Assembly (NCBI GenBank): GCA_030642005.1
Contig: DAOWOP010000001.1
Location: forward strand, 1-46,498
Origin: Planctomycetales bacterium
GTDB taxonomy: Bacteria; Planctomycetota; Phycisphaerae; SM23-33
DNA: 46,498 nucleotides
Reading direction: 5' to 3'
Translations under genes and position numbers: made by a program
Notes under the pieces: generated by a model
The model's input: the letters and a program-made list of their open reading frames with translations, nothing else
Told to the model about the DNA's origin: nothing
Database searches by the model: none
Shown: positions 7,477 through 25,488 of the stretch, in pieces
How the letters are laid out: each line of letters begins with the position of its first letter
Position numbering within the stretch: position 1 is the first letter of the stretch

Positions 7477-7477
7477 T

Positions 7478-11830: not shown

Positions 11831-12823
11831 TCACCCTCTTCGCTGCGAAGGCGGCCGGATGCGCGGCCCAATGTGAGCACCATGTAGTCCATCGGACGTT
11901 GGCGGGAAGACACTCAAGTGGAGAAGATGGTCCTCGACCTGCAGGATCTGACCAAGCACGTCCTCGGCATCGAAACGCAGATCGTCACCAAGCCCCACCG
12001 CGTTGAAGGCCTGGCATTGCTGTTCGGCAACGTGCTCCAACAATACGCTGGCTGCCTTGGCGGTGAACGTCTTGTTGGCCTTGTCCTTGGCTGCCTCGGC
12101 GTCGACGGCGTAGCTCGCCACCAGTCGCGCCCAGACTGCCTCGAGCGTTGAGGGCGAGTCAAAGGCGTCCGCCGCCACGAAACGCCCACACACGGCCGCC
12201 ACGACGCCACACGTGCCAGAGGGGTACGGTAATGCCTCGTGATAGCGCCCGAGCACTTCGGCCAGTGTGTCCATTGCATCGGACATCGCACGGGTTGGTG
12301 AAGGGGCGGCGCAGGCCTCGATGTGTTCGGCCACGTTGTCCCACACGGCTCCTTGATCGCTTTCGGCCCGGCCACAGGCGCGAAGGCTGAACTGAACGTC
12401 GCGGCTCTTGCGCTGGCGCAAGCTGCTCGGCGCGTAGTTGCCGGTTTTGAAGGTCGGACTGGTGTGGCTCCACCGGCCTTCCTCGACGCAGGATACCGGG
12501 ATGCGGGTCTTGGACTTTGGCGGCAATAGCACACTCGTGTTGAGGATTCGATTCTGCTTCGCGCCCTGGAGTTCCTCGCCGTCCAGCAGCAATATCGGCC
12601 GGTCAGCGTTATTGACCGCCAGGAGTTCCGGCACTGTACCGGACTCATCAACCTCGGTTACCGTCAGCATACCAGCGTCGATGGCTTCGGACGCCAGCAG
12701 GTAGTCCTGGAATCGTTGCTGATGCCCCTCCCCCCGCAGGGGCACCAGCGTCAGGTTCTGGTGGCCTATCGCGGCCCCGGGTACCAGGGTTGGGAGAACG
12801 TCTTTCATTCGGATCGTGGTCAT
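11831..12823 (-). CDS. Conserved hypothetical protein, divergent from the WYL regulator gene
   Basis: The ORF track starts at TTG 12844. ATG at 12823 is preceded by AAGGAAAGGG and is the more likely start. The N-terminal half (NLTLVPL...LTVTEVDESGTVPELLAVNNADRPILLLDGEELQGAKQNRILNTSVLL) recalls a widespread bacterial DUF family (possibly ARPP-1/DUF6569-like). That is from memory only and unverified. Confidence 0.55.
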   Translation of the reverse strand: MTTIRMKDVLPTLVPGAAIGHQNLTLVPLRGEGHQQRFQDYLLASEAIDAGMLTVTEVDESGTVPELLAVNNADRPILLLDGEELQGAKQNRILNTSVLLPPKSKTRIPVSCVEEGRWSHTSPTFKTGNYAPSSLRQRKSRDVQFSLRACGRAESDQGAVWDNVAEHIEACAAPSPTRAMSDAMDTLAEVLGRYHEALPYPSGTCGVVAAVCGRFVAADAFDSPSTLEAVWARLVASYAVDAEAAKDKANKTFTAKAASVLLEHVAEQQCQAFNAVGLGDDLRFDAEDVLGQILQVEDHLLHLSVFPPTSDGLHGAHIGPRIRPPSQRRG

Positions 12824-12872
12824 GGCTATCCCTTTCCTTATCAAGTTGCCGATACAAGGGTAACCGGGGCCT

Positions 12873-12893
12873 GTGACAGGTCCGGTCGCACCT
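12873..12893 (-). promoter_or_regulatory. Operator-like box, copy A (17/21 match, oriented toward the minus-strand gene 11831-12823)
   Basis: The reverse complement reads AGGTGCGACCGGACCTGTCAC against the consensus ACCTGCGACCGAACCTGTCAT. It lies 50 nt upstream of the ATG at 12823. Confidence 0.55.
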
Positions 12894-12920
12894 GGCCAAG
12901 ATTTCTCAAAAAAATTCGTG

Positions 12921-12941
12921 ACCTGCGACCGAACCTGTCAT
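12921..12941 (+). promoter_or_regulatory. Operator-like box, copy B (exact 21-mer ACCTGCGACCGAACCTGTCAT) upstream of the WYL regulator gene
   Basis: Identical to 13970-13990. It is preceded by an A/T tract and ends 41 nt before the ATG at 12982. It contains an internal direct repeat ACCTG-N7-ACCTG. Confidence 0.65.
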
Positions 12942-12981: not shown

Positions 12982-13959
12982 ATGGCTCGAGGCGATGGCC
13001 TGTTTCGACAATGGGAATTGATCAAGGTGCTGCAAGCCCACCGGTTCGGCGTAAGCACCGACGAGATCGCCGCGCGCCTCGAGTGCAATAAGCGGACCGT
13101 CCAGCGTGACCTGGGCGTCCTCCAGGACATCTTCCCGATTAGTTACGAGCAGCGGGACCGTGGCAAGCGGTTCTGGAAGATGGCCTACAACACAATCGAA
13201 TCGGAAGAGCTTCAACTGACGATGACCGAAATGTTGAGCCTGTTCCTCTCGCAGCAACTGCTCCTGCCGCTTTCGGGAACCCAGTTCGGCGACGGCCTCC
13301 AGACGGCCTTGCAGAAGATTCGAGCGCTGCTGCCGGCGCGGGCGCTGACGTACTTCGATGGCCTCGACGAGTCATTCTTCATCAAGAACCTGGCCAACCA
13401 CGACTACTCCGGCCAGGACAAGGAAATCCGCATCATCAACGAGGCCATCCTGAACCAGAAGACTGTGAAGGTAATCTATCGCTCGGCCAGCAAGGGTCGT
13501 GAGGTCATCAGTGAGTTCCACCCGTACGGCATGGTCCTGCTGCACGCGTCGCTGTACTGCATCGGCTACCTCGCATGCTACGACGAAGTCCGCACGCTCA
13601 AGGTGGCCCGGATCAAGGGCCTGACGCGGCTGGACAAGACGTTCAACAAGCCACTTGATTTCTCGCTGGCTGGCCACTTCCAGGGCGCGTTCGGTGTCTT
13701 CCAGGCTAAGAAGAAGCAGAAGATTCGAGTTGAATTCACCGGATGGGCGGCCACGAACGTTCGGGAAATGCAGTGGCATCCGACCCAGAAGATAGTCAAG
13801 GATGCTGGCGACAAGGTCGTCGCCACGTTCGATCTGGGCAACACCGTCGAGTTCAAGCGGTGGGTGCTGGGGTTCGGACTGCACGCCCGCATCATCAGTC
13901 CCAAGGCACTGGCCGAGGACCTCCGGGACGAAATCCAGAGCATGGCCAAGAATTATTAA
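12982..13959 (+). CDS. WYL-domain transcriptional regulator (HTH-WYL-WCX architecture, BrxR/CapW-like)
   Basis: N-terminal wHTH (WELIKVLQAHRFGVSTDEIAARLECNKRTVQRDLGVL), central WYL-type segment (VKVIYRSASKGREVISEFHPYGMVLLHASLYCIGY) and a C-terminal extension. RBS AAAGGA lies 7 nt upstream of the ATG. Confidence 0.85.
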   Translation: MARGDGLFRQWELIKVLQAHRFGVSTDEIAARLECNKRTVQRDLGVLQDIFPISYEQRDRGKRFWKMAYNTIESEELQLTMTEMLSLFLSQQLLLPLSGTQFGDGLQTALQKIRALLPARALTYFDGLDESFFIKNLANHDYSGQDKEIRIINEAILNQKTVKVIYRSASKGREVISEFHPYGMVLLHASLYCIGYLACYDEVRTLKVARIKGLTRLDKTFNKPLDFSLAGHFQGAFGVFQAKKKQKIRVEFTGWAATNVREMQWHPTQKIVKDAGDKVVATFDLGNTVEFKRWVLGFGLHARIISPKALAEDLRDEIQSMAKNY

Positions 13960-13969
13960 TATTTTTTCC

Positions 13970-13990
13970 ACCTGCGACCGAACCTGTCAT
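13970..13990 (+). promoter_or_regulatory. Operator-like box, copy C (exact 21-mer) upstream of the ABC-ATPase/kinase/regulator/GHKL-nuclease operon
   Basis: Exact repeat of 12921-12941, also preceded by an A/T tract (aattattaatatttttt). It ends 58 nt before the ATG at 14048. Confidence 0.65.
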
Positions 13991-14047
13991 ACCTCCCCTT
14001 TATGCTGAACCCATCCATTATGGGTTACATGCGTAAAGGGCAATGAA

Positions 14048-15934
14048 ATGAACGAAAAAAAGCGTTGTCACCGGCTCAAGTCGCTGTCGGTGGTCGGTGG
14101 GTTTCTGGATGGGTTGAATATCGAGTTTGCCGACGGGCTGAATTGTCTTATCGGCCATCGTGGTACGGGCAAGACGACCGTGCTGGAGTTTATCCGTTAT
14201 GCCCTCGACGAGTTTCCGCAAGACGATGGAGGGCTGGCCCGCAAGCGGGTCGAAGCACTGGTCAAAAGCAACCTCAGCGACGGCCGCATCCGGCTGGCAC
14301 TGGAGACCAAGGATGGGTTGGAGTACATCGTCGACCGGACCGCCAGTGGCGAGCCGATGGTCCTGACCACTGATGAGCAACCGACGGACGTTCGCATCAA
14401 CACGGCGGGCATTTTCAGCGCCGATATCTTCAGTCAGAACGAGGTCGAGAACATCGCCGACAGTCCACAGTCGCAGCTGGAGCTGATTGACAAGTTCGCA
14501 GCCGGTCAGATCGCAGAGGTCAACCGCAAGGTGACGGCGGTGCGGGCCAAGATGGAGGCGAACACCAACGCCATTGTTACCCATGACCAGCAGTTGAAAG
14601 GTCTGGTCGACGAGGTCTCCGCGCTGCAGTTCATCGAGTCGAAGATCAAGTCCCTTACCGATGATAAGAGCGACCAGACGGATGATGAGGTTAACGTCGC
14701 GCAGCAGCATCGTGCGCTGCGGGGACGTGAGAGCCAGGCGGTCAAGGAGGCAGAGGAACTGATCCAGCAATACAGCCAGTGGCTCCACGATTCGCGCGGT
14801 CAGTTTATCCAGCGAATCGAAACGGCCTTCGACCCGTCAATGTTGGACGGGCCGAATGGCAAGGTGATGAGCCGCATTCAGGAGAATCTCAGGCGGCTTG
14901 GGAGCAAACTGGATCGCCTGTTCGACCAGGCCGCCGGCGTGGTTGATTCCGGTGGGAATGAACTGGCGGAACTGGTCGGCAAGCTCCAGCACGCCCACCA
15001 GCAGCAGGAGCTGGCGTTCCGCGACCTGATCGCCAAGGACAACCATGCACGCGGGGTGGCCACGGAGCGGGCGGAATTGGAAAAGAAACGTAATGATTTG
15101 CTAGCCAAGGATCGGCGTAAGGCTGAGCTTCAAAAGCAGATCGACCAGCTCTATCGGGAACGGTCTGATCTGGCCGGGCAGCTCCGTGAATTGTGGTCCG
15201 AGCGATTCGAGCTGCGGCAGCAGGTCGCCAACTGGATTAACGAGGGCGCGACGTCGCCTATTCGCGTCCGGATCGACCAGTGCGGCAACCGTTCGGTCTA
15301 CCAGCAGGCGTTGGCCGGCTGGATGAAGGGATATGTGCGCCAGTACAACCCGGCGGCCAGGAAGATAGCGGACTACGTGCCACCGAGCGACCTGCTGCGG
15401 ATGGTCACCGAGGGACGCACCGATGATCTTCAGGCCCAAGCGGAACTCGGAGACACGCAGATGGCCAAGGTGATGGAGGCCCTGAACCGTCTTGATGTCC
15501 AACTGCAGCTCGACTCGGTTGAACTGGCCGATCTGCCACGGCTTGAACTGCTGGACGGTGAGGAGTGGAAGAACTCTCTGCATCTTTCGACCGGCCAGAA
15601 GTGCACGACGATTCTGCCGATCCTGCTGCTGGAGAGCGACAACCCATTGCTCGTCGATCAGCCTGAGGACAATCTCGACAACCGCTATATCTACGACACG
15701 GTGGTCAATGCCATCCATCGGGTGAAGCAGAACCGCCAGATTATCCTGATCACGCACAACCCGAACATTCCCGTTCTCGGCGAGGCGTCGGCGGTGTACG
15801 TGCTGACCAGCGACGGCGAGCGAGCCCGTATGGCGAACCAGGGCTCCGTGGACGACTGCAAAACCGAGATCATCAATCTCCTGGAAGGCGGCAAGGAAGC
15901 CTTTGTCCGCAGGAAGGACAGGTACAAATACTGA
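14048..15934 (+). CDS. SMC/Rad50-like ABC ATPase with a long central coiled-coil insert
   Basis: Walker A IGHRGTGKTT at the N-terminus. About 330 aa of heptad-like, charged sequence in the middle. Signature-like LSTGQK and Walker B/D-loop LLVDQPEDNLD near the C-terminus. Confidence 0.75.
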   Translation: MNEKKRCHRLKSLSVVGGFLDGLNIEFADGLNCLIGHRGTGKTTVLEFIRYALDEFPQDDGGLARKRVEALVKSNLSDGRIRLALETKDGLEYIVDRTASGEPMVLTTDEQPTDVRINTAGIFSADIFSQNEVENIADSPQSQLELIDKFAAGQIAEVNRKVTAVRAKMEANTNAIVTHDQQLKGLVDEVSALQFIESKIKSLTDDKSDQTDDEVNVAQQHRALRGRESQAVKEAEELIQQYSQWLHDSRGQFIQRIETAFDPSMLDGPNGKVMSRIQENLRRLGSKLDRLFDQAAGVVDSGGNELAELVGKLQHAHQQQELAFRDLIAKDNHARGVATERAELEKKRNDLLAKDRRKAELQKQIDQLYRERSDLAGQLRELWSERFELRQQVANWINEGATSPIRVRIDQCGNRSVYQQALAGWMKGYVRQYNPAARKIADYVPPSDLLRMVTEGRTDDLQAQAELGDTQMAKVMEALNRLDVQLQLDSVELADLPRLELLDGEEWKNSLHLSTGQKCTTILPILLLESDNPLLVDQPEDNLDNRYIYDTVVNAIHRVKQNRQIILITHNPNIPVLGEASAVYVLTSDGERARMANQGSVDDCKTEIINLLEGGKEAFVRRKDRYKY

Positions 15935-17082
15935 TGATTGAACGGACTCAATCCAACCTGGAAGAGGCCTGCAGCCTGCTGCACCGGAACCCGCAACATA
16001 TGTCGGGCGACGAACGCCGACGTTTGGTCACGAGCATTACGGACGCCATCCTGTGCGATGATGCCGCCGGCGATACGGTGGTTACCGATCTGGTCGACCT
16101 GCTGGCCCGCGACCCTGACTGGGCCGTTCGGCTCGATGTGGCGCGGATGGTGCATCTGCTTGATGACGAGTCGTGCAGCCGCTTGGTGGCGATTTTCCGG
16201 GGCGATTGCAACAGTTACGTCCGCAGCCATGCCGAGCGGAGCCTCGCCCGGCAGCGTAAGGTCCGTCAGACTTCGAGCCGCAAACGCATCGAATGCCGAA
16301 CTTACTCAGAGCAACTGGACCAGTTGACTCGTCAGTACGGCAAACGAGTCGCGGCCAAGGTCCAGGCCCTTGCCGACCAGCGGTACGCCATGCTCGCCGC
16401 CGCCGTGGCCCATGACGTGCGAAGCATTCTTACGACGCTCTCGGCCAACGCGGCCGCCCTTGCTGATGAGCTTGGTACGGCGAACCGAGCAGCCTCCATC
16501 CTCGAGGACATCGGATTCCTCAAGCGGACCATCGAGGCGATGGAACAGTTTACCAAGCCGCTGCCGGTCCAGCGTCATCCCGAAGACCTTCAACAGATGA
16601 TCCAGCAGGCCATCGAAAAGGCTCGGGAAGGCGTGATCCAACAGCGTCACGATCCCTCAGCCGTGGAGGTCGTGGTAGCAGCCGCGCCGGCCATTCGACT
16701 GCGAGTGTCTCGCCGCTTGATTGTGTTTGCGCTAACGAACGTGATCCAGAACGCCATCGAGTGTTTCGCCGACCGCGAGGTAGACTCGCTGCGGGCTGGG
16801 CGTATCGAGGTGCAGGTGGTCGTGGACGGCTACGAAACGCGGATTATCGTCATTGATGATGGCCCTGGAATCGAGCTGGAGGTACTCAAGGAACTGACCT
16901 CTTTCGCACCCACCGGGCCGAACAAGTCCAAGCGTAACAGCTCGGGCTGGGGCCTTAGCCTGGTGCATAAGTACGTCACTGCTCACGGCGGGTCGGTGGC
17001 CATCGACAGCGAGATGAACCAGGGCACAACCGTAGTGGTCACACTGCCCATGCGAGATTCAGCCGGGGGAGATGACGAATGA
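15934..17082 (+). CDS. Soluble histidine kinase with an N-terminal HEAT-repeat-like region
   Basis: HEAT-like LARDPDWAVRLDVARMV, H-box AAAVAHDVRSIL, N-box NVIQNAIEC, G boxes VIDDGPGIE and GWGLSLV. No TM segments. 1-nt overlap (TGATG) with the upstream gene and ATGA overlap with the downstream gene. Confidence 0.85.
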   Translation: MIERTQSNLEEACSLLHRNPQHMSGDERRRLVTSITDAILCDDAAGDTVVTDLVDLLARDPDWAVRLDVARMVHLLDDESCSRLVAIFRGDCNSYVRSHAERSLARQRKVRQTSSRKRIECRTYSEQLDQLTRQYGKRVAAKVQALADQRYAMLAAAVAHDVRSILTTLSANAAALADELGTANRAASILEDIGFLKRTIEAMEQFTKPLPVQRHPEDLQQMIQQAIEKAREGVIQQRHDPSAVEVVVAAAPAIRLRVSRRLIVFALTNVIQNAIECFADREVDSLRAGRIEVQVVVDGYETRIIVIDDGPGIELEVLKELTSFAPTGPNKSKRNSSGWGLSLVHKYVTAHGGSVAIDSEMNQGTTVVVTLPMRDSAGGDDE

Positions 17083-18140
17083 AGGTGCTCGTGGTTGAAG
17101 ACGACCGTAAGATCAAGATCGAGACCATCGATGATTGCCTGGAATCCCCGGGCCACGTCAGTGACTGGGCACAGAACCAGCAAGAAGCCAACGGCCTGCT
17201 GGTCGCCAACAACTACGATCTGATTCTGCTTGACCTGCAGATTCCATCGAGACCGGGTGGCAAAGACTCGCCCGAATTCGGCAAGAACTTGCTGAAACAG
17301 ATCCGCGCACGCAAGGGACGGGATGTGCCGGTGATCCTGATGACGGCCCAGTACCAGCACTGCGTAGACCTGATGATCGAGCTTCAGGATATCGGTATCG
17401 ACGGCAGTATCGCCAAGCCGTTTCCGACGTCGGGGCGAACACTGGCCGTGGTGATCGAGGAGGTGATGGAAAAACATCGGCGTTTCCGGCGGGCGGCCAA
17501 AGCGAAGGACCAGACCGAGTCGCTCACGACGTTCGCCGGCGGCGTGCTGGCCTATCACCCGCGCCGCATCGAGCTGTGCGGTGAGACCATCGCCGAGAAG
17601 AGTCGAAGGGGCTATGCCTGGCAGATTCTCCATGTGCTCCGCGAGACGAACGACAAAGGCAAGTATATCCATCTGGGCAGCCAACGTCTGGCACCCAAGC
17701 TCGACCCGAAGCCCATGCAGAACACGCTGATCCGGTCGATCTGCTCACTGCGGTCCCGCATCCGAAAACTCATGCGGAATCACCTTGGGCAGGATTGTGG
17801 CCAAGAGGACATCATCGGCAATGACGATCATGGCTACTACCTGCTGGACTGGCTCATCACCGAGGTGTACGACGAGGCCGGGACGCTGGTCGGTGGGGGA
17901 AACGGTGTGGCCAAGTCGGCCCATGCGAAACAAGGCGGCGAGCCCGCCCAGCAGTTCAGCGAAAAGCAGCGATGGGTGCTGGCCCAGTTGGCGTCGGAAG
18001 TGAATCTAACCCGTCGTGACGTTGAGACGGAGTTCCACATCAGCGAACGCACGGCCAAAAGGGTGCTCGGCGAGTTGTCGGGGGCAGGCATGATCGAGTT
18101 CGACCGGTCGGAAAGCCCCGGCTTCTACCGGCTGAAGTAA
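17079..18140 (+). CDS. Response regulator: REC domain, OmpR/PhoB-type winged helix, and an additional C-terminal HTH
   Basis: MKVLVVEDD, DLILLDLQIP (acceptor Asp), PVILMTAQ, AKPF. The middle region follows the Trans_reg_C pattern (RRIELCGETI...YAWQILHVL...IRSICSLRSRIRKL...HGYYLL). The C-terminal segment ISERTAKRVLGELSGAGMIEF is HTH-like. Confidence 0.85.
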   Translation: MKVLVVEDDRKIKIETIDDCLESPGHVSDWAQNQQEANGLLVANNYDLILLDLQIPSRPGGKDSPEFGKNLLKQIRARKGRDVPVILMTAQYQHCVDLMIELQDIGIDGSIAKPFPTSGRTLAVVIEEVMEKHRRFRRAAKAKDQTESLTTFAGGVLAYHPRRIELCGETIAEKSRRGYAWQILHVLRETNDKGKYIHLGSQRLAPKLDPKPMQNTLIRSICSLRSRIRKLMRNHLGQDCGQEDIIGNDDHGYYLLDWLITEVYDEAGTLVGGGNGVAKSAHAKQGGEPAQQFSEKQRWVLAQLASEVNLTRRDVETEFHISERTAKRVLGELSGAGMIEFDRSESPGFYRLK

Positions 18141-18281
18141 CGTGAGCGTTCTTGCGGATCAGAATCTGTATCGGCGTATGGTGACATGAGTTGGAATCAT
18201 GCTGACACCTCAGTCCCGGCGCGTTAGCATGGGTGGCGCAAGTCGAGACTGTTTCGTGCATGGAAAGCGGGCAGAGTTGGC

Positions 18282-21200
18282 ATGAGTCGGCACAATGACC
18301 TTGTGGAGGACTACCTGCAGGATGGCGGGCAGTTGTCAGAGGCAGTGATGGTTGAGAATCTGGAACAGTGCGAACCTGAAGACCTGAACGGGGATGCAGC
18401 CCTCGCGATCTCTAAGATCGCTGAGGACCAACGTGGCCTCTATGAGCGTGAGCCGAGAGAGCTGATCAGCCACTATAACCGCGAGACGAGTGCGCTCGAT
18501 GGTTACCGGGGTCGCCAGATCCTAGAGCTGCTCCAGAATGCAGACGACGCCGGTGCTGATCTCGCGGATGGCTCCCAAGTCGTTTTTGCCTTGGATCGCC
18601 ATCATCTTGTTGTTGCCAACACGGGAACACCGTTCACTTACGACGGGCTGATGTCACTGGTCATCAGTGATTGCAGTCCGAAGCAGCTTGAGCAGAATCG
18701 CTTCATTGGCTGCAAAGGATTGGGCTTTCGGGCCGTGTTGACGTGGACTGAACGGCCCTTGATTGTCAGTGGCTCGCTTCAGGTGTATTTTGACCGTCAG
18801 GCAGCGACTCGCTATGTCGAATCGTTGGCCCAGGACGGTTCAAGGCCCAACCGCGTAGATGATTACCACCGCTCGGTTGGTCGTTGGCCAGTTCCAGTGA
18901 TGCGATTTCCTTTGGTGCCAGCAAACGACCACCCAGACCTTCGGGTTGTACAGCGGTTCCAAGCGAGGGGGTTTACTACGGTAGTCGTATTACCGCTGCC
19001 TGAAGGAGATCGAGGCGATGAAGTGTTCGCGGAAGCTGAGGAACAGCTGACAGAACTACCCTCTGCAGCGTTGCTCTTCTGCCGGCACTTGGTCGATGTT
19101 AAAATCGAAGGCGCTGTGACAAGAAACTGGCTCTTGATCCGCGAGGAAGTAGACCACGAGAGGTCAAGGGTCATTATCTCCGATGGTGAGCAGAGTACTA
19201 CTACTTACTGGGATATCTACCGGCGATCAGGAAGGGTGCCACCAGAGGCCGATACCGAGTCCACAGGTGGCCGGCAGGAGTATGAAACAGGAGTTGCTGT
19301 ACCCGAAACAACAGACGCACCATACGACCGGAACGCTCTTTGTGTGTTTTTTCCCACCCGCGAACGCCTGCCATGCCCGCTTATCTTCCACGCAACGCTC
19401 GAGACAACGGAAGACCGAAATCGGATTGTCGATCACGCATCGAATCGCTATGTCCTGAAGGCATTAGCGGCGCACTTGGCCAGCGTTCTTGAGCAGGAGT
19501 CGCAGGGCGAAGATTCACATAGGCCCTTACGACTGCTGAGCGGAATCGAGAACGCCGACCCTGAACTCGTGAGGTTGGGCTTCGTCGAAAGCGCGAAACA
19601 AGCCGTGCGGGACACGCGGTTATTTCCCCGTCTCGACGGTCGTTTGGAAACAGCCGACAACACGGTTCTTCCGCCGCATGACGTATGGGCCGATGTGGCG
19701 GACGCCAGATGGTTCCCGGAAATGCTAGTGCTACCCTCGAACGAACGAACTGTGGACCTTGTGCGTTGGTTGGGGCTCTCGTGGCTGGACCGGGATTCTC
19801 TGAAGTTGCGTCTGCGGACGATGGTCGCGGCGGCTGAGCCTGAACGAGCGGGCACAACGCTTGGCCAACTGGTTGATGCGAACCAGCTGCGCTCTATTGG
19901 AGTCAATGGCTTTCTGCTGGAACGGCAGGGCTGTCCTGTTGCCGAAGGTGAAGAGTGTTTCTTCACGCCGACCGAGGAGTTGCCGCCACTGCCAGCATGG
20001 GCGCAAGGCGTGCGATTCCTGGATGCCGCTTTTCAGCGTGCGCTGTTGCAGGCATCCGGCCACTCGTCCCTTCGCGGCCTGGCCGGCGAGATGGAGCGAA
20101 ACGCGGCCAAGGTATCCGAGTACCGATTCGACACTGTGGCGCGTGCGATCATTTCACCCCTGAATTTGGATAGCGAATTGCCCGATGCCGAGCGAGTGCA
20201 ACGCTGGCGAGAGATCTTGGCATGGCTGCTTCGGGCGTCTGAGGGTTCGCGGCAAGTTCTTTCGCAGCTACCGGTCAATGTCGTGACGGCTAAAGGCACA
20301 CTAAAGCGAGCAACTTCTCTATACCTCTCTGGCGAATACCAACGTGGTCGACTCGTGGCCCGTCTGTACGGGCCGCTCGATGAGGACGACTTCGTGGCGA
20401 AGCCTGAAGGATTGGGCTTGTCCGAACTCGGCGAGGTAGAGGTGGAGGAGTTCCTGATCGCCCTTGGGGTCCATGCAACGCCACGGTCTACATCACTATC
20501 CACCACCTATAGTCGGCCGAATGTGGACTACCGCGCTTTCCGCGAGTTCGTGGTGGATAGCCTTCCATTCCCGATCTCCGTGCGATCAAAGCTGTGCGAA
20601 TCGCCAAGCGATGTGCGCAGCCACTGCAGCAGTTACCAGATCAAGGGTGTGAACGTACCTGATCGGTTCCTACGCATACTCAAAGAGGGAGATCCCGTCG
20701 CCGTCATGGCCTACCTGATGTCTGAACAGCAGACAGTCTTGTCTGCCGAGAACATCGAGAGCGCATGTTTCCAGGCCACGATTGAAAATGAACGGAACTA
20801 CCGGGATGATCACGCCGTGCCCATCCCCAACCCGGTGCTGCATTGGCTTAGAGAGACCCCATGGGTGCCAGGCCAAGATGGTGAGCGGCATCGTCCCGCT
20901 GAGATCATGCTGAGCCGCATCGGCCTGAGGGTGCTGCCCAGCGTGTACTGCCGACATGCGATTGATCACCGTAATGAGATGCTGGCCTCGCGGGGTGGCA
21001 AACAGGCCATGGACGCGGTCTTGTGTCGTCTCGGGGTTGTGGCATCGCTGGAGACGATGGCGAGTGAGCAGGTCTACGACCTCCTCCTGTCTTTGCCCGA
21101 GCGCGACCCGCAAGGACAATCCGTCTCGGCGATCTACCGCACGTTCCTGGAGTCGAATATCACCGCCGAGGACGGTCCCAACCGCTCGGAGTTTCTGCGG

Positions 21201-22628
21201 AACGGCAAGGTGTGGGCCAGGTATCAGGGCGAAGGCCATTTCCTGCCTGTAGCGCAGGTGCGGTACAACGCGAACGTCACTTTGCCAGACGCAGTCGTGT
21301 CACGCATAGCTCTGCTCGACCTGCCACGGCGTCGTAACGCCACGGCGGTGAAGCAGTTGCTCGACGTCAAGCCGCTGTCGTCAGGGGAAGTCGCGTTGGA
21401 AGTCGTCCAAGACGACACCGAGTACGACGTCCACAGCGAAGATGCCAACGCATTCTTGCGGCGGTGCATCCCGTACATATACGCGCTGCGACTCGGCAAG
21501 AAGATAGACGATGATTTCCGAGAGCGTAACTTGCTCAAGCGCACGTCACTATACGTCTGCAATTGCCTGGCGGTTCGCGTGTCGATTGAGGGGCAAGAGC
21601 CGGAAACGCTGATCTTGGATCATGCTAAAGACCACATCTGCATCGAATCACAACTCTACCTTGTGGGTCAATATGATCCGGATGGGGCGGGGGCGACAAG
21701 CTTCTGGTTGTCCGTGGCTGGACTTGTTGCAGAGGCCCTTGGGACCGACATTGCGGCCGAAGTCAGTGCTGTGCTCCGTTGCCGATCAGAGCGTGAAATG
21801 CAAGAGGTCGTGGAAGGGCTCCTCGGGCCGGAGGCAGGTGGGAAACTTGAGGAGGCACGACGGCGGTTCGATGACTGGGATATCGTGGGAGACGATGAGG
21901 ACATGGTCATCATACCTCCAAGCCCTGAGCCTGACCAGCCAGGAGAAGAAGGGAAAAAGAGCGACGAGGGAGGTGACGAGAAGACGGAGGGAAAAACAGC
22001 GGGACAAGACGACGAAAGCGGCGGTGAGGATGAGAATGAGGCTGGTGGCAAAGCCGGCACCGAGTCTGATCAGCGGTTCACAACAACCAGCCCCCCAGAC
22101 CGCAAGTCGAAGAAGAAGCGACGCCTTGTGATCAACCGCCATGGCGGCGGAACTGGCGGCGGTGGTCACGGACCTGTTGCGACGGAGAGTGTTACGTTCC
22201 AAATCGTGGAAGCCTTTGAGCGCCAAGATGGGGAAGGTAGGTTTGTGATCGACGTGAGCCATATTCGCGGAAGCGAGGGGTTCGGCTGTGACCTGCTCAG
22301 CATGAGTTCCGAGGATGTGAAAGAGAAGGCTCTTGCCAGCGGGGAGATCTCCGAGGGCGAAGTAGACAGGTTCATCGAGGTGAAGGGACGGAGTTCACGA
22401 ACAGGCGAGGTAGAACTTACAGAGAACGAATACCGCGCCGCCGAGAGGCTCGGAAACCGGTATTTTCTCTATCGTGTGTTCGTGGACCCAAGTGATTCGT
22501 CTGTGTACGAAGTCGCCGTGCTCCAGAACCCGGTTCGTTCTTCCGCAACGCGAACGGTGACGCGCTTCGATTTAAGCAAGGGTTCCGGGGCAGTCTGGTA
22601 CGCCCTCGAGGAGGTTACGGAAGAATGA
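18282..22628 (+). CDS. 1448-aa protein: sacsin/NOV-like GHKL ATPase head, large middle region, acidic low-complexity linker, C-terminal DUF3883-like PD-(D/E)xK nuclease domain
   Basis: N-box RQILELLQNADDAGA (18513-18557) and GCKGLGFRAVLTW. Acidic/Gly linker EEGKKSDEGGDEKTEG...GGEDENEAGG at ~21890-22170. C-terminal GCDLLS ... FIEVKGRSS ... YFLYRVF is typical of DUF3883 (from memory). Confidence 0.75.
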   Translation: MSRHNDLVEDYLQDGGQLSEAVMVENLEQCEPEDLNGDAALAISKIAEDQRGLYEREPRELISHYNRETSALDGYRGRQILELLQNADDAGADLADGSQVVFALDRHHLVVANTGTPFTYDGLMSLVISDCSPKQLEQNRFIGCKGLGFRAVLTWTERPLIVSGSLQVYFDRQAATRYVESLAQDGSRPNRVDDYHRSVGRWPVPVMRFPLVPANDHPDLRVVQRFQARGFTTVVVLPLPEGDRGDEVFAEAEEQLTELPSAALLFCRHLVDVKIEGAVTRNWLLIREEVDHERSRVIISDGEQSTTTYWDIYRRSGRVPPEADTESTGGRQEYETGVAVPETTDAPYDRNALCVFFPTRERLPCPLIFHATLETTEDRNRIVDHASNRYVLKALAAHLASVLEQESQGEDSHRPLRLLSGIENADPELVRLGFVESAKQAVRDTRLFPRLDGRLETADNTVLPPHDVWADVADARWFPEMLVLPSNERTVDLVRWLGLSWLDRDSLKLRLRTMVAAAEPERAGTTLGQLVDANQLRSIGVNGFLLERQGCPVAEGEECFFTPTEELPPLPAWAQGVRFLDAAFQRALLQASGHSSLRGLAGEMERNAAKVSEYRFDTVARAIISPLNLDSELPDAERVQRWREILAWLLRASEGSRQVLSQLPVNVVTAKGTLKRATSLYLSGEYQRGRLVARLYGPLDEDDFVAKPEGLGLSELGEVEVEEFLIALGVHATPRSTSLSTTYSRPNVDYRAFREFVVDSLPFPISVRSKLCESPSDVRSHCSSYQIKGVNVPDRFLRILKEGDPVAVMAYLMSEQQTVLSAENIESACFQATIENERNYRDDHAVPIPNPVLHWLRETPWVPGQDGERHRPAEIMLSRIGLRVLPSVYCRHAIDHRNEMLASRGGKQAMDAVLCRLGVVASLETMASEQVYDLLLSLPERDPQGQSVSAIYRTFLESNITAEDGPNRSEFLRNGKVWARYQGEGHFLPVAQVRYNANVTLPDAVVSRIALLDLPRRRNATAVKQLLDVKPLSSGEVALEVVQDDTEYDVHSEDANAFLRRCIPYIYALRLGKKIDDDFRERNLLKRTSLYVCNCLAVRVSIEGQEPETLILDHAKDHICIESQLYLVGQYDPDGAGATSFWLSVAGLVAEALGTDIAAEVSAVLRCRSEREMQEVVEGLLGPEAGGKLEEARRRFDDWDIVGDDEDMVIIPPSPEPDQPGEEGKKSDEGGDEKTEGKTAGQDDESGGEDENEAGGKAGTESDQRFTTTSPPDRKSKKKRRLVINRHGGGTGGGGHGPVATESVTFQIVEAFERQDGEGRFVIDVSHIRGSEGFGCDLLSMSSEDVKEKALASGEISEGEVDRFIEVKGRSSRTGEVELTENEYRAAERLGNRYFLYRVFVDPSDSSVYEVAVLQNPVRSSATRTVTRFDLSKGSGAVWYALEEVTEE

Positions 22629-23205: not shown

Positions 23206-23391
23206 CCCATCCTCCACGACGGGCCGATGGCACCGGTGCCATATCTGCAATACTGCCGGGCTTCTTTTGGCGGCGGATTCGGAGCCAGCCATCCGACGCT
23301 ATCCCAGAAAACATCTTGACGCATGAGGCTACGAGATCGACAATATCATATGGTAGATTGCACTCTCCCCCGGGCGAAGGAATGGTATTCA

Positions 23392-24237
23392 ATGGATATC
23401 GACTGGCTCCAGAAGCGGTTCCCCGACTTGACCAATTTCGTCCCCTTGGCTCCAAGCGGGCAGAAGGAGGTATTTGCTGCGGATCACAAGACTGAGGGCG
23501 CAGTGGTGCTTAAAATATTCAAGCCGGGGTCTAACGCCGAGCGCATCCAACGAGAGATGCAATCACCGCTCAAGATGAGAAGTTCACGCATACCGACGAT
23601 ATACGAGTTGGGCCGAACAGATTCGCCTACCGGCGAGATCGTCTGGCTCCGAGAGAAGAAGGTTGAAGGCCAGAGCCTGAGGGAAATACTTAAGGCGAAG
23701 GGCAAGCTCGACGAGGGGACCACCATCAGGATTGGCCTCCATGTCATTGATGTGCTGGCTGCCGCCGAGGTCGCGAGCGTGGTTCATCGCGACATAAAGC
23801 CTGGCAACATCATCATTGCCATGGACGGCAGCGCGTGGGTAATCGATTTCGGGCTGGCGCGTCATCTCGATCAGGAGTCACTGACGCCTACCGTGGACAA
23901 ACTAGCTCCCTGCACGCCCGGCTACGCGCCCGTCGAGCAATTCACAAACCAGAAACACAACATCGACGCTCGAGCTGACCTGTTCGCAACGGGCGTGACT
24001 CTCTACGAGTGCCTTGAGGGTGAGAATCCGTTCCTCAAGGGAGTGATAGACTGGAAGGAAGCATTCGGTCGTGTTATGAACATGAAGATGCCCAGGATCG
24101 GAACCAGCGGTGTGTCGGAAGAGTTCGTCGATCTTGTCGACTCGATGACACGCACAAAGGCGGAACACCGCCCAGCTACGGCGGCGGTGGCGTTGCAGTG
24201 GATCAGAGAAATCGCCATGGCGCATAAGATCATCTAG
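23392..24237 (+). CDS. Ser/Thr protein kinase (Hanks type), kinase domain only
   Basis: VVLKIFKPG (catalytic Lys region), HRDIKPGNIII, DFGLAR, TPGYAPVEQ. The ORF track starts at 23323. ATG 23392 (MDIDWLQ) follows GAAGGAA and is the more plausible start. Confidence 0.85.
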   Translation: MDIDWLQKRFPDLTNFVPLAPSGQKEVFAADHKTEGAVVLKIFKPGSNAERIQREMQSPLKMRSSRIPTIYELGRTDSPTGEIVWLREKKVEGQSLREILKAKGKLDEGTTIRIGLHVIDVLAAAEVASVVHRDIKPGNIIIAMDGSAWVIDFGLARHLDQESLTPTVDKLAPCTPGYAPVEQFTNQKHNIDARADLFATGVTLYECLEGENPFLKGVIDWKEAFGRVMNMKMPRIGTSGVSEEFVDLVDSMTRTKAEHRPATAAVALQWIREIAMAHKII

Positions 24238-24255
24238 CTCATAAGGAAAACTCCC

Positions 24256-25488
24256 ATGGATTTTTACCTCCAGTTTGCGTACCAGATGCAGGTGGTTTGC
24301 TGCGATCTCATCCAAGAGTGGGGTGGCGGCACAGTCATCATGAGCCCCCGCGACTGCAAGCCGCTGGGTGAGGATAAGTCCGGCGAGTTGGAGAAGCATG
24401 CGGCGTCCATTCGTGTTGTCGGAGGGAGAATCCTGATCGATCCGCAGTTTTACAGGCCAGAGTCGGACCACAAGGTTCTCACGTCGCACGCCTATTGGCC
24501 TGATAAATATGACAGCGTCGAGTTCTGGGAGAAGAGGGATGAGCCGGACTACGGCGAGCTGCTCAAGAGGCTTGGGGAGTTAAACGCCAAGGTTGAAGCA
24601 TCGGCCATCATCTTGCCCGGTACGCTGGCCACAGTGGTCGATGACGAATGGCTCGCTCGTCAGTCAAGGATGATCGGGGCCGCGCGCATGGAATACGGTG
24701 ATGATGAGGAGTTGCTGGCGACGGTGGCTCTCTCTGCCGACGCGGTTAGGTCCGCTGATCAGGTCCACGCCATTCTGGCGGCAGCGGGCGATTGGAGGGT
24801 GCAGGGGATATACCTGATCTGCGAGCACCCAGACGGACAATATTTGGTCGAGAACGATGCTTGGATTGCCAACATCCTTGACTTGACGGCTGGATTCCGT
24901 CTTCGCGGGCAGAGCGTTGTGATCGGCTACGCGAACCAACAAATGTTGGTCGCCGCCTGCGCATCGGTTACCGCCATCGCCTCCGGCAGCCATAAGATGA
25001 AGCGGCAGTTCTCGTCGTCCACGATGATGGAGAAGGACGGCGATGATGTCATGAGGCAAGCGACGTGGTACTATTGCCCACAAGCGTATTCTGAATTCAA
25101 GATCCCGCGTCTGGATTCGGCGAACTTGCAGAAGGTGTTGGGCAAGCTCCGGCATCCAGAAGATATGGGGGTCTGCCACGCTGACGTCCTGTTCGCTGGC
25201 GCACAGCCGTCCACGGTAGGTTTCAGGCACAAGCTGTCGTTCAAGCACTACCTCGGATCCCTCCACGCGCAATCGTTAGCACTCAGGAAGGCCACATTCA
25301 ACGATACGGTTCAAGTATACAGGGGCTCTCTCGATGCTGCAGAAAAGTTACTGAAGGAACTACAGGCCAAGCGCATCCGAGCGGAGGAACGTAGTTTCTT
25401 ACCAGCCGTCGACCCCACGCACGTTGGCGTCAATATGTTGGTCGAAGACCGAGGTGCGATGCTTCGGCATGTGTGGCCAAATCTGTAG
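24256..25488 (+). CDS. Hypothetical 410-aa protein, co-transcribed with the kinase
   Basis: RBS AAGGAAAA lies upstream, and the gene starts 18 nt after the kinase stop. Alternating hydrophobic strands and helices (VIMSPRD, ILIDPQFY, IILPG, GIYLICE, VVIGYAN, AIASGSH) suggest an alpha/beta, possibly TIM-barrel-like, fold. I recognise no catalytic motif. Confidence 0.55.
   Translation: MDFYLQFAYQMQVVCCDLIQEWGGGTVIMSPRDCKPLGEDKSGELEKHAASIRVVGGRILIDPQFYRPESDHKVLTSHAYWPDKYDSVEFWEKRDEPDYGELLKRLGELNAKVEASAIILPGTLATVVDDEWLARQSRMIGAARMEYGDDEELLATVALSADAVRSADQVHAILAAAGDWRVQGIYLICEHPDGQYLVENDAWIANILDLTAGFRLRGQSVVIGYANQQMLVAACASVTAIASGSHKMKRQFSSSTMMEKDGDDVMRQATWYYCPQAYSEFKIPRLDSANLQKVLGKLRHPEDMGVCHADVLFAGAQPSTVGFRHKLSFKHYLGSLHAQSLALRKATFNDTVQVYRGSLDAAEKLLKELQAKRIRAEERSFLPAVDPTHVGVNMLVEDRGAMLRHVWPNL

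What the first reader, a model, noticed from the sequence alone, without database searches (positions are those of the whole stretch)
14048..22628. Candidate undescribed system: SMC-like ABC ATPase, HEAT histidine kinase, OmpR-type regulator and sacsin-like GHKL/DUF3883 nuclease
This is a four-gene co-directional unit preceded by the WYL-type box. The first three genes are translationally coupled (TGATG at 15932-15936; ATGA at 17079-17082). The fourth follows a 141-bp gap, which could hold an internal regulated promoter. The components are a coiled-coil ABC ATPase (Walker A GHRGTGKT, LSTGQK, DQPEDNLD), a soluble HEAT-repeat kinase, a REC/wHTH/HTH regulator, and a 1448-aa protein with a sacsin-type ATPase head and a DUF3883-like PD-(D/E)xK tail. 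SMC-like ATPases (Lamassu, Wadjet), WYL regulators and DUF3883 domains each have defence-system precedent. I do not know of a described system that combines them with a dedicated His-Asp phosphorelay. A plausible logic is that the ATPase and/or kinase senses invading DNA or infection stress, the regulator boosts transcription, and the giant GHKL-nuclease executes.
Basis: partly seen in the sequence, partly recalled or inferred. Interest (0 to 1): 0.85.

Follow-up and report, generated by a model that had tools for sequence, protein, structure and literature searches.

The report
ATPase–kinase–regulator trio beside Tiamat gene
The four genes are real but are two separate units: a widespread, apparently undescribed three-gene signalling module (DNA-clamp-like ATPase, soluble histidine kinase, DNA-binding response regulator), and next to it a stand-alone copy of the known single-gene phage-defence protein Tiamat.

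Summary
Observation confirmed. The four co-directional ORFs, both overlapping junctions, the 141-bp gap, all quoted motifs and the repeated 21-nt box are present.

The four-gene reading fails its own synteny test.
- Gene 4 matches PADLOC TmtA (Tiamat) end to end (E=7e-199).
- It is solitary in 48 of 50 informative metagenome loci.
- A promoter-like element upstream of it is conserved even in a solitary 75%-identical homolog.
- ATPase→HEAT-kinase→response-regulator is conserved as a trio in all 80 sampled genome loci (at least 583 relatives, about 7 phyla).
- A TmtA-like gene follows the trio in 0 of 54 informative loci. The adjacency is confined to one close clade.

The trio's catalytic residues are essentially invariant. 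It sits in variable restriction, CRISPR and recombinase neighbourhoods and on prophage-like contigs. It has sister versions on conjugative plasmids with a kinase-like output. I found it neither in PADLOC (2023) nor in the searchable literature.

Best reading: an SMC-like ATPase supplies the input to a His→Asp relay whose output is DNA binding. In a few lineages a neighbouring ARPP-1-linked WYL regulator probably adds local control.

Detocs already sets a precedent for a defensive phosphorelay. A defence role for the trio is inferred, not shown.

The parts
11831..12844 (-). ARPP-1 family protein (337 aa), divergent partner of the WYL regulator. It belongs to a neighbouring module, not to the trio core.
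   Evidence: Pfam PF20208, E=5e-91. ARPP+WYL is a published conserved two-gene neighbourhood (PMC9503650). The pair recurs next to trios in L003, L032, L057 and L090.
12874..12941 (.). Inverted pair of operator-like boxes in the ARPP-1/WYL intergenic region: an imperfect copy at 12874-12891 on the minus strand and an exact copy at 12921-12941 on the plus strand.
   Evidence: (inverted repeat I2).
12982..13959 (+). HTH-WYL-WCX transcription regulator (325 aa).
   Evidence: Pfam WYL 1.5e-14, WCX 8.7e-14, HTH_11. PADLOC WYL 8.8e-31.
13970..13990 (+). Third copy of the 21-nt box, 58 nt upstream of the ATPase start codon. Probable WYL operator on the trio operon.
   Evidence: Exact repeat with 0 expected by chance. 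A box sits at the equivalent position in L090 and directly upstream of the ATPase in L032 (8825-8842, ATPase starts about 8904). In L003 it follows the WYL gene.
14048..15934 (+). SMC-like ABC ATPase with a long coiled-coil insert (628 aa). TrlF/Ppl-type ATPase lacking the N-terminal PHP domain. Proposed sensor.
   Evidence: Pfam AAA_23/SMC_N. NCBIfam TrlF family E=2.4e-84, matching profile positions 290-944 of 944. Walker A, signature, Walker B and H-loop conserved in 82-83 of 83 sequences. Foldseek matches to Smc, MukB, Rad50, JetC, LmuB and RecN.
15934..17082 (+). Soluble histidine kinase (382 aa): N-terminal HEAT repeats, DHp with His160, and a CA domain. Start codon overlaps the ATPase stop codon.
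   Evidence: Pfam HEAT_2, HATPase_c and weak HisKA. His160 conserved in 77 of 77; N, G1 and G2 boxes conserved. All named kinase families score far below their cut-offs.
17079..18140 (+). Response regulator (353 aa): REC (Asp52), OmpR-type winged helix (about 150-272), disordered linker, and an extra C-terminal wHTH (295-352). Start codon overlaps the kinase stop codon.
   Evidence: Pfam. AlphaFold model pLDDT 85.7. Foldseek matches to full-length VanR, KdpE, PmrA and RpaA. D8, D52 (74 of 75), T/S89 and K113 conserved.
18202..18230 (+). Promoter-like element CTGACA-N17-TAGCAT in the 141-bp gap. Probably gene 4's own promoter.
   Evidence: Consensus scan. The element is conserved upstream of TmtA-like genes in L001, L091 and L092, and in the solitary homolog L006.
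18282..22628 (+). Tiamat-type TmtA homolog (1448 aa): sacsin-type GHKL head, large middle region, acidic/Gly-rich linker, and DUF3883/NOV_C tail with a D...ExK motif. A separate single-gene unit.
   Evidence: PADLOC TmtA PDLC03964, E=7.2e-199. Head, middle and tail each match, at profile positions 13-420, 431-1137 and 1396-1521 of 1538. Pfam SACS + NOV_C. Invariant E82, N86, D88, D89, G143, G146, G148, D1337, E1366 and K1368. Solitary in most loci.

Best explanation
The 8.6-kb stretch is two independently mobile units lying side by side in a defence island of a Phycisphaerae-type planctomycete. Unit A (14048-18140) is a translationally coupled three-gene operon. It encodes an SMC/Rad50-like ABC ATPase of the TrlF/Ppl type without the PHP phosphoesterase domain, a soluble HEAT-repeat histidine kinase with no membrane or small-molecule sensor domain, and a response regulator whose only outputs are DNA-binding domains (an OmpR-type winged helix plus a second wHTH). 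Proposed mechanism, inferred: the ATPase engages a DNA structure or foreign DNA. Its ATP-driven conformational state is passed to the kinase, probably through the HEAT repeats. The kinase autophosphorylates His160 and transfers the phosphate to Asp52 of the regulator. The regulator then binds DNA and changes transcription, or occupies target DNA. In this lineage and a few others, the neighbouring ARPP-1-linked WYL regulator probably adds control through a 21-nt operator placed just upstream of the ATPase gene. Unit B (18202-22628) is a Tiamat-type TmtA gene with a promoter-like element of its own. It is a single-protein GHKL-ATPase with a PD-(D/E)xK-like tail that most likely works without the trio. 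The adjacency of A and B is a lineage-specific juxtaposition, not a conserved four-gene system.
For: Separability, shown. ATPase, kinase and regulator are the only conserved gene families across 82 loci (82, 76 and 72 loci, same order and strand). Distant loci that tblastn missed still have a HEAT/HisKA kinase and a REC protein in place. A TmtA-like gene follows in 0 of 54 genome loci that have at least 2 kb beyond the regulator. Close trio relatives (68-78% ATPase identity) have other genes downstream. TmtA-like homologs at 75, 47, 41 and 34% identity are solitary. Only 2 of 50 informative metagenome loci have a trio gene upstream, and both belong to the 74-78% clade. In L092 the ATPase is gone and the kinase is truncated while the TmtA-like gene is intact. 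The promoter-like element upstream of gene 4 is conserved in the solitary homolog L006. Gene 4 matches TmtA end to end. Functional relay, shown at sequence level. Walker A/B, signature and H-loop are conserved, as are His160 (77 of 77), the N, G1 and G2 boxes, and D8, D52, T/S89 and K113. The start and stop codons overlap. DNA-binding output. SMC-like fold. Conflict or mobile-element context. Neighbours have no dominant family but include serine recombinases, integrases, type I/III restriction genes, Cas3, DrmD/BrxH/DpdE-like helicases and McrB-like AAA_5. Intact trios occur on predicted viral or prophage contigs. Sister trios occur on conjugative plasmids with a REC-APH/TCAD9 kinase-like output. 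Seven sampled assemblies each yielded two divergent trio loci, one of them partly degraded. The pair is not orthologous to any named two-component system. WYL link: the box lies upstream of the ATPase in the window, L090 and L032.
Against: No experiment bears on any step. The ATPase-to-kinase coupling is inferred only from strict co-occurrence, codon overlap and the kinase's lack of another sensor domain. The trio has no recognisable toxic effector, so how DNA binding by the regulator would protect a cell is unclear, and a purely regulatory or mobile-element maintenance role is possible. The neighbourhood evidence is descriptive: I computed no enrichment statistic against a genomic background. 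Within the 72-79% clade the regulator-to-TmtA adjacency persists on 5 distinct contigs besides the window (L001/L002, L091, L092, L103). In L092 the regulator is retained with the TmtA-like gene, so a local functional link cannot be excluded. The heads in the ATPase model are low confidence. I could not read the main ABC-ATPase classification paper, so the trio may already be catalogued there.
Confidence: 0.6

Rival explanations
1. One reading: one integrated four-gene defence system. The ATPase and kinase sense infection, the phosphorylated regulator switches on the promoter in the 141-bp gap, and the giant GHKL-nuclease executes.
For: The regulator-to-TmtA adjacency is kept over about 25% protein divergence on several contigs (window, L001/L002, L091, L092, L103). 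The gap holds a promoter-like site. In L092 the regulator is retained next to the TmtA-like gene although the ATPase is lost. The trio itself lacks a toxic effector.
Against: A TmtA-like gene follows in 0 of 54 trio loci in genomes. 48 of 50 informative TmtA-like loci lack any trio gene. A 75%-identical homolog is solitary and keeps the same promoter-like element. The trio promoter region and the gene 4 promoter region share no motif, and the gap has no OmpR-type direct repeats. Trio relatives at the same ATPase identity (L010-L013) lack it.
Confidence: 0.12
2. The trio is not an immune system. It is a regulatory or maintenance two-component system, for example a DNA-damage, replication-stress or mobile-element housekeeping circuit in which an SMC-like ATPase reports DNA state to a transcription factor. 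Its position in islands reflects carriage on mobile elements.
For: The output is only DNA binding, and there is no toxic effector. Trios lie next to serine recombinases, integrases and RepB/ParB genes, and on plasmids close to replication genes. The related TrlF locus is known for a growth or temperature phenotype, not phage defence.
Against: The distribution appears patchy, and seven sampled assemblies each yielded two divergent trio loci. Restriction, CRISPR and helicase neighbours recur. The output domain is swapped for a kinase-like domain in the plasmid versions, which is typical of conflict systems. The nearest named ATPase relatives include the anti-phage protein Ppl. The trio is linked to WYL/ARPP-1 conflict modules.
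Confidence: 0.2
3. The trio is an island-level sensor and regulator cassette that controls whichever variable cargo genes lie beside it. Here that would be Tiamat, elsewhere an MmeI-like enzyme, a DACNV protein and so on. It would be analogous to BrxR/CapW-type regulators but driven by a phosphorelay.
For: The genes flanking the trio are variable and often defence-related. The regulator is a transcription factor. 11 of 44 loci have a co-directional gene within 200 bp downstream.
Against: The downstream gene is co-directional in only 20 of 44 loci. Many neighbours are recombinases or unrelated genes. No shared operator was found between the trio and TmtA promoter regions. The plasmid sister systems replace DNA binding with a kinase-like domain, which does not fit a pure transcription-regulator role.
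Confidence: 0.15

Closest known systems
Tiamat (TmtA), a phage-defence system attributed to Millman et al. 2022 (PMC12926258) and, from my own knowledge, a single-gene system; represented by PADLOC models PDLC03964-03972
   Same: Gene 4 matches TmtA profiles over head, middle and tail (E=7e-199). It occurs as a lone gene in mobile-element and defence-island contexts. It has a GHKL-type head and a DUF3883 tail.
   Different: It is only a distant homolog of whichever proteins were tested experimentally. About 260 profile positions between middle and tail are replaced by an acidic/Gly-rich linker. In this clade it lies directly after a response-regulator gene. The mechanism of Tiamat is itself unknown.
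Detocs (DtcA/DtcB/DtcC), the validated defensive two-component system (bioRxiv 10.1101/2023.01.24.525353)
   Same: A cytoplasmic kinase with a repeat-type N-terminal domain (TPR there, HEAT here), a His-to-Asp transfer to a receiver protein, a three-gene operon in defence contexts, and an output domain that can be swapped in relatives.
   Different: Detocs has no ABC ATPase, and it has a buffer receiver (DtcB) that the trio lacks. Its output is a toxic effector (PNP ATP nucleosidase, REase, Toprim or TM), not DNA-binding domains. The trio kinase has no PADLOC hit, and the regulator matches PDC-M60B/C only weakly over the receiver domain. That PDC-M60 equals Detocs is my guess.
TrlF / Ppl / Spaf_1101 PHP-ABC ATPases (Ppl is an anti-phage protein; TrlF is part of the Photorhabdus temperature-restriction locus)
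   Same: This is the closest named ATPase family: NCBIfam TrlF E=2e-84, Spaf_1101 5e-46, Ppl 9e-35, and PADLOC Ppl 1e-21. TrlF is partnered with TrlG, which carries a histidine-kinase-like ATPase domain.
   Different: The window ATPase aligns only to profile positions 290-944 and so lacks the N-terminal PHP phosphoesterase. Its score of 285 bits is below the TrlF cut-off of 350. Its partners are a true kinase and a receiver protein rather than an AlbA_2/HATPase_c_4 protein.
SMC-like ATPase defence systems (Lamassu LmuB, Wadjet JetC, and also Rad50/SbcC)
   Same: An ABC head with a coiled-coil insert. Foldseek matches LmuB, JetC, Rad50, RecN and Smc. There are weak LmuB profile hits. DNA sensing by the ATPase is a plausible shared logic.
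   Different: There is no kleisin/KITE or LmuA/LmuC/JetD partner and no nuclease partner. The coupling is to a phosphorelay.
WYL-domain regulators of defence loci (BrxR/CapW type) and the ARPP-WYL gene pair
   Same: The HTH-WYL-WCX architecture, an inverted-repeat operator in its own divergent promoter, and a further copy in front of an adjacent conflict operon. The ARPP+WYL pair is as published.
   Different: The regulator accompanies only about 5 of about 85 trio loci. It is far better conserved (75-85%) than the trios beside it (41-88%), so it is an accessory, shuffled module. Binding has not been tested.

Membership tests
Tiamat (TmtA) | Significant, near full-length match to a TmtA profile | tested here: met
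   PDLC03964 scores E=7.2e-199. Separate scans give head 13-420 (6.9e-93), middle 431-1137 (2.1e-84) and tail 1396-1521 of 1538 (2.4e-16). Eight other TmtA profiles also hit.
Tiamat (TmtA) | Works as a single gene with no obligatory partner genes. That Tiamat is a single-gene system is my own knowledge; PADLOC holds only TmtA models for it. | tested here: met
   Homologs are solitary in L006-L009 and in 48 of 50 informative metagenome loci. A promoter-like element upstream of the gene is conserved. Only genomic independence was tested, not function.
Tiamat (TmtA) | Protection against phage on expression | not testable with these tools
The mechanism of Tiamat is listed as unknown in PMC12926258.
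Detocs | DtcA-type kinase plus DtcC receiver fused to a cell-killing effector | tested here: not met
   The regulator's output is an OmpR-type wHTH plus a second wHTH. No effector domain is present. The kinase has no PADLOC hit.
Detocs | Stand-alone buffer receiver protein (DtcB) in the operon | tested here: not met
   Only three conserved genes exist across the loci, and none is a stand-alone receiver.
Detocs | Conserved phospho-accepting His and Asp, which are required for defence in Detocs | tested here: met
   His160 is conserved in 77 of 77 and Asp52 in 74 of 75. This shows the trio works like a phosphorelay. It does not show membership.
TrlF / Ppl PHP-ATPases | Score above the NCBIfam TrlF cut-off over the full-length profile, including the N-terminal PHP domain | tested here: not met
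   The score is 284.7 bits against a cut-off of 350. The match covers profile positions 290-944 of 944 only. No PHP domain appears in Pfam.
Lamassu / Wadjet | SMC-like ATPase encoded with LmuA/LmuC or JetA/JetB/JetD partners | tested here: not met
   The partners are a kinase and a regulator. No such genes are conserved nearby. Only weak partial LmuB hits were found.
Canonical OmpR/PhoB-family two-component systems (housekeeping) | Orthology to a named kinase/regulator pair (score above a family cut-off) | tested here: not met
   The best kinase hit is AtoS at 87 bits against a cut-off of 646. The best regulator hit is PmrA at 50 bits against 330. The REC + OmpR-type wHTH fold is shared, but the extra wHTH, the HEAT N-terminus and the obligatory ATPase partner are not.
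WYL-regulated defence operon (BrxR/CapW-like control) | WYL regulator with an operator in front of the regulated operon | tested here: inconclusive
   A box lies upstream of the ATPase in the window, L090 and L032, and after the WYL gene in L003. Binding is untested, and most trios have no WYL gene nearby.

The most novel reading that the evidence does not exclude
The ATPase-kinase-regulator trio is a previously unrecognised, widespread class of mobile conflict system. An SMC/Rad50-like ATPase acts as the nucleic-acid sensor of a His-Asp phosphorelay. The receiver's output domain is exchangeable: DNA binding in Planctomycetota, Verrucomicrobiota and other phyla, and a kinase-like APH/TCAD9 domain on enterobacterial and actinobacterial conjugative plasmids. 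In the DNA-binding versions the phosphorylated regulator either silences invading DNA directly or triggers a protective transcription programme. In this lineage it may additionally be wired to the adjacent Tiamat gene.
Probability: 0.3. Interest if true: 0.8.

Novelty: new variant of a known kind. Interest (0 to 1): 0.55.

Why it matters
If the trio is a conflict system, it would link two themes that have so far been separate: DNA sensing by SMC-like ATPases (Lamassu, Wadjet, Ppl) and defensive phosphorelays (Detocs). It would be a case where the sensory input of a histidine kinase is another enzyme that reads DNA. It would also pose a clear question: how can a system whose only output is DNA binding protect a cell or a mobile element? 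The family is large, with at least 583 hits in one-genome-per-species sampling. Its sister versions on Klebsiella IncF conjugative plasmids make it testable in ordinary laboratory hosts. For annotation, the practical lesson is that the large gene should be called Tiamat-type TmtA, and the four genes should not be reported as one system.

Tried and rejected
1. Four-gene synteny. I tested it from both sides and rejected it outside one clade.

2. A recurrent fourth gene or a downstream effector slot. ORF clustering found none. Downstream genes are co-directional in only 20 of 44 loci.

3. A shared regulator operator between the trio promoter region (13960-14047) and the gene 4 promoter region (18141-18281). 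One shared 7-mer was found, which is below the shuffle mean, and no OmpR-type direct repeats.

4. MADS membership, suggested by the mad3 hit. The hit is only a generic ABC-ATPase-level match, and the kinase and regulator have no mad hits. I could not retrieve the MADS paper's gene list.

5. Literature. Searches for the trio under several phrasings found nothing. The Tiamat searches gave only surveys and reviews. The Millman preprint text does not name Tiamat. The ABC-ATPase classification paper (Krishnan et al. 2020) is not held.

6. PDB sequence search with gene 4 gave no hit. Gene 4 exceeds the size limit for structure prediction.

7. The Klebsiella plasmid trio DNA found no near-identical match in complete E. 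coli genomes.

8. The first neighbour scans failed on the residue limit and were repeated with fewer ORFs.

9. The ATPase model has low-confidence heads, so the fold matches support only the general SMC-like class.

Full report
OBSERVATION. The four ORFs lie exactly where stated: 14048-15934, 15934-17082, 17079-18140 and 18282-22628, all on the + strand. The junctions are overlapping stop/start codons: TGATG at 15932-15936 and ATGA at 17079-17082. Gene 4 follows a 141-bp gap. Every quoted motif is present: GHRGTGKT at aa 36, LSTGQK at aa 513, DQPEDNLD at aa 537, AHDVRS at aa 159 and LLDLQ at aa 50. Pfam supports each domain call: AAA_23/SMC_N; HEAT_2 + HATPase_c; Response_reg + wHTH; SACS + NOV_C/DUF3883.

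The regulator model (pLDDT 85.7) aligns to full-length OmpR/PhoB regulators over about 265-270 columns and carries an extra C-terminal wHTH after a disordered linker. The ATPase model has confident coiled coils but poorly modelled heads. It matches Smc, MukB, Rad50, JetC, LmuB and RecN.

The "WYL-type box" is an exact 21-nt repeat at 12921-12941 and 13970-13990, with none expected by chance. An imperfect inverted copy lies at 12874-12891.

GENE 4 IS A KNOWN KIND. PADLOC's TmtA (Tiamat) model PDLC03964 matches at E=7e-199. Scanning head, middle and tail separately shows that all three match. The tail aligns to the C-terminal ends of seven TmtA profiles. In a 19-member family alignment the GHKL N-box (E82, N86, D88, D89), the G-box (G143, G146, G148) and a D1337...E1366-x-K1368 motif are invariant. 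Reviews list Tiamat as a defence system of unknown mechanism.

SYNTENY TEST, FROM THE ATPASE SIDE. A scan of one genome per species found at least 583 relatives, and 80 loci were fetched. By record titles they come from Planctomycetota, Verrucomicrobiota, Lentisphaerota, Gemmatimonadota, Myxococcota, Chloroflexota and Pseudomonadota.
- Of 73 loci with room for a kinase, tblastn found one directly downstream in 67.
- Of 64 loci with room for a regulator, tblastn found one in 55.
- Among the loci tblastn missed, every one I sampled had a HEAT/HisKA kinase and a REC protein in place.
- Clustering all ORFs around the ATPase gave exactly three conserved families (82, 76 and 72 loci). There was no fourth.
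- A TmtA-like gene follows in 0 of 54 loci that have at least 2 kb beyond the regulator.
- Close relatives at 68-78% ATPase identity carry other genes downstream: a DACNV protein, a cyclase-like protein, an MmeI-like methyltransferase, a PEP-CTERM protein, and AAA_16/RepB/ParB genes.
- The gene after the regulator is co-directional in only 20 of 44 loci.

SYNTENY TEST, FROM THE TMTA SIDE. Homologs at 75% (Desulfurivibrio), 47%, 41% and 34% identity are solitary in mobile-element or defence contexts. Of 80 metagenome loci, 50 have at least 1.5 kb of upstream DNA. Only L092 (78%) and L103 (74%) have a trio gene there. Together with L001/L002 and L091, the adjacency is confined to a clade with 74-80% TmtA identity. 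In L092 the ATPase is absent and only a C-terminal kinase fragment remains, while the regulator and the TmtA-like gene are intact.

The promoter-like CTGACA-N17-TAGCAT in the gap (18202-18230) is conserved upstream of the gene in L001, L091 and L092, and also in the solitary L006 homolog. The two promoter regions share no motif beyond chance. The four genes are two units.

WHAT THE TRIO IS. Catalytic residues are essentially invariant across 75-83 sequences. In the ATPase these are Walker A, the signature motif, Walker B and the H-loop. In the kinase they are His160 (77 of 77) and the N, G1 and G2 boxes. In the regulator they are D8, D52 (74 of 75), T/S89 and K113. This is a functioning phosphorelay under selection.

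It is not orthologous to any named two-component system, because all scores fall far below the family cut-offs. The ATPase's closest named relatives are TrlF (E=2e-84, below cut-off), Spaf_1101 and the anti-phage protein Ppl. It aligns only to profile positions 290-944, so it lacks their PHP phosphoesterase domain. In Photorhabdus, TrlF sits beside TrlG, which has a kinase-like ATPase domain.

The 97 nearest long ORFs in 60 loci show no dominant family. They do show recurrent serine recombinases, integrases, type I/III restriction genes, Cas3, DrmD/BrxH/DpdE-like helicases, McrB-like AAA_5 and S24/HTH repressors (examples). Seven sampled assemblies each yielded two divergent trio loci, one of them partly degraded. 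Intact trios occur on predicted viral or prophage contigs.

On plasmids, 1,127 records match the ATPase at about 29% identity. In a Klebsiella IncF conjugative plasmid and a Rhodococcus plasmid the order is ATPase, then a short kinase, then REC fused to an APH/TCAD9 kinase-like domain. The ATPases are homologous end to end (E=1e-70), the kinases only weakly, and the receivers only at domain level. The wider family therefore swaps the output domain on the receiver.

PADLOC (2023) has no model for the kinase or for a matching system. My literature searches found no description.

THE WYL/ARPP-1 LINK. ARPP+WYL is a published two-gene neighbourhood. Here the pair is divergent, with an inverted box pair between the two genes and a third box 58 nt upstream of the ATPase gene. 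The box recurs at the same place in the closest relative, L090. It also lies directly upstream of the ATPase in L032, although an insertion separates that gene from the WYL gene. In L003 it lies just after the WYL gene. The pair accompanies only about 5 of about 85 trio loci. It is much better conserved (75-85%) than the adjacent trios (41-88%). I read it as an accessory, shuffled regulator that has repeatedly been placed over trios.

MECHANISM.
Shown at sequence or structure level:
- the three-gene operon with coupled translation;
- intact ATPase, kinase and receiver chemistry;
- a DNA-binding output;
- a kinase with HEAT repeats and no other sensor domain;
- strict co-occurrence of the three genes;
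- independence from gene 4.

Inferred:
- the SMC-like ATPase senses a DNA state and gates the kinase through the HEAT repeats;
- the phosphorylated regulator binds DNA;
- WYL derepresses the operon in some lineages;
- the role lies in conflict between mobile elements and hosts.

Unknown: what the regulator binds, and how that helps the cell or element.

COMPARISON AND NOVELTY. Gene 4 is a new member of a known kind (Tiamat). The trio works like a cross between Detocs, the validated defensive phosphorelay, and SMC-like ATPase sensors such as Lamassu, Wadjet and Ppl. It fails the membership tests for each. It has no buffer receiver or toxic effector, no PHP domain, and no Lmu or Jet partners. 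I rate it a new variant of a known kind, with the caveat that the key ABC-ATPase survey could not be read.

LIMITS. There is no experimental evidence for any step. The neighbourhood evidence is descriptive and has no background statistic. The contigs within the close clade are related by descent and count as one juxtaposition event. A local regulator-Tiamat link in that clade is not excluded.

The window's source is inferred as Phycisphaerae from homolog names only. The defence island covers roughly 1-26 kb. From about 29.5 kb onward the window is ordinary chromosome.

Noticed in passing
window 6118-11712: A tightly packed three-gene set upstream of ARPP-1. It comprises a DNA methyltransferase (6118-7476, PADLOC MTase_II E=4e-107) and an 828-aa protein (7478-9964). 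That protein has an N-terminal GHKL domain of the BbrUII/HgiDII restriction-enzyme type and a C-terminal histidine-kinase-like HATPase_c. The third gene is a 583-aa protein with no family hit (9961-11712, overlapping the previous stop). This is a second kinase-like domain in the same island, in a restriction-like setting.
   Followed up: partly
window 51-6050: A type I restriction-modification set: N6_Mtase (51-1199; it aligns only to the later part of the N6_Mtase profile, positions 130-279 of 311), a specificity subunit (1196-3118) and HsdR (3105-6050).
   Followed up: partly
window 23323-25488: A Ser/Thr protein kinase (23323-24237) is followed 19 bp later by a 410-aa protein with no family hit (24256-25488), just downstream of the Tiamat-type gene. 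This may be another island module.
   Followed up: no
L172 (Klebsiella pneumoniae IncFIB/IncFII plasmid NZ_CP054974, 38405-42550) and L173 (Rhodococcus plasmid NZ_CP096564): Sister three-gene modules on plasmids: ATPase, a short histidine kinase without HEAT repeats, and REC fused to an APH/TCAD9 kinase-like domain. In all, 1,127 plasmid records (813 predicted conjugative) match the window ATPase at about 29% identity, 220 of them over at least 80% of its length. Some of these are annotated as TrlF-family ATPases rather than trios.
   Followed up: partly
L092 1-6500: In a 78%-identical relative of gene 4, the upstream trio has decayed. There is no ATPase and only a 159-aa C-terminal kinase fragment, but the regulator is full length and lies directly before the TmtA-like gene.
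   Followed up: partly
L005/L019 12800-15650: An IS21-type element (transposase plus IstB) is inserted in the histidine kinase gene of a trio that lies next to a type I restriction system carrying TIR-domain genes.
   Followed up: no
L003 7331-9959: ARPP-1, the WYL regulator and a HIRAN-domain gene lie together directly upstream of a trio. These are the two ARPP partners described separately in PMC9503650. PglX-like and NERD-kinase (PglW-like) genes lie on the other side.
   Followed up: no
L010/L085, L012/L013, L011/L014, L019/L032, L039/L042, L044/L059, L060/L065: Seven assemblies each yielded two divergent trio loci, for example at 76% and 57% identity to the window ATPase in one MAG. L085 is partly degraded: its ATPase match covers only 63% of the protein, and the kinase lies about 4 kb downstream.
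   Followed up: partly
L032 5100-8900: A homeodomain-like HTH protein and a serine recombinase are inserted between the WYL gene and the trio. Box copies lie on both sides, at 5130-5147 and 8825-8842. The two copies differ in sequence, so they are not a target-site duplication.
   Followed up: partly
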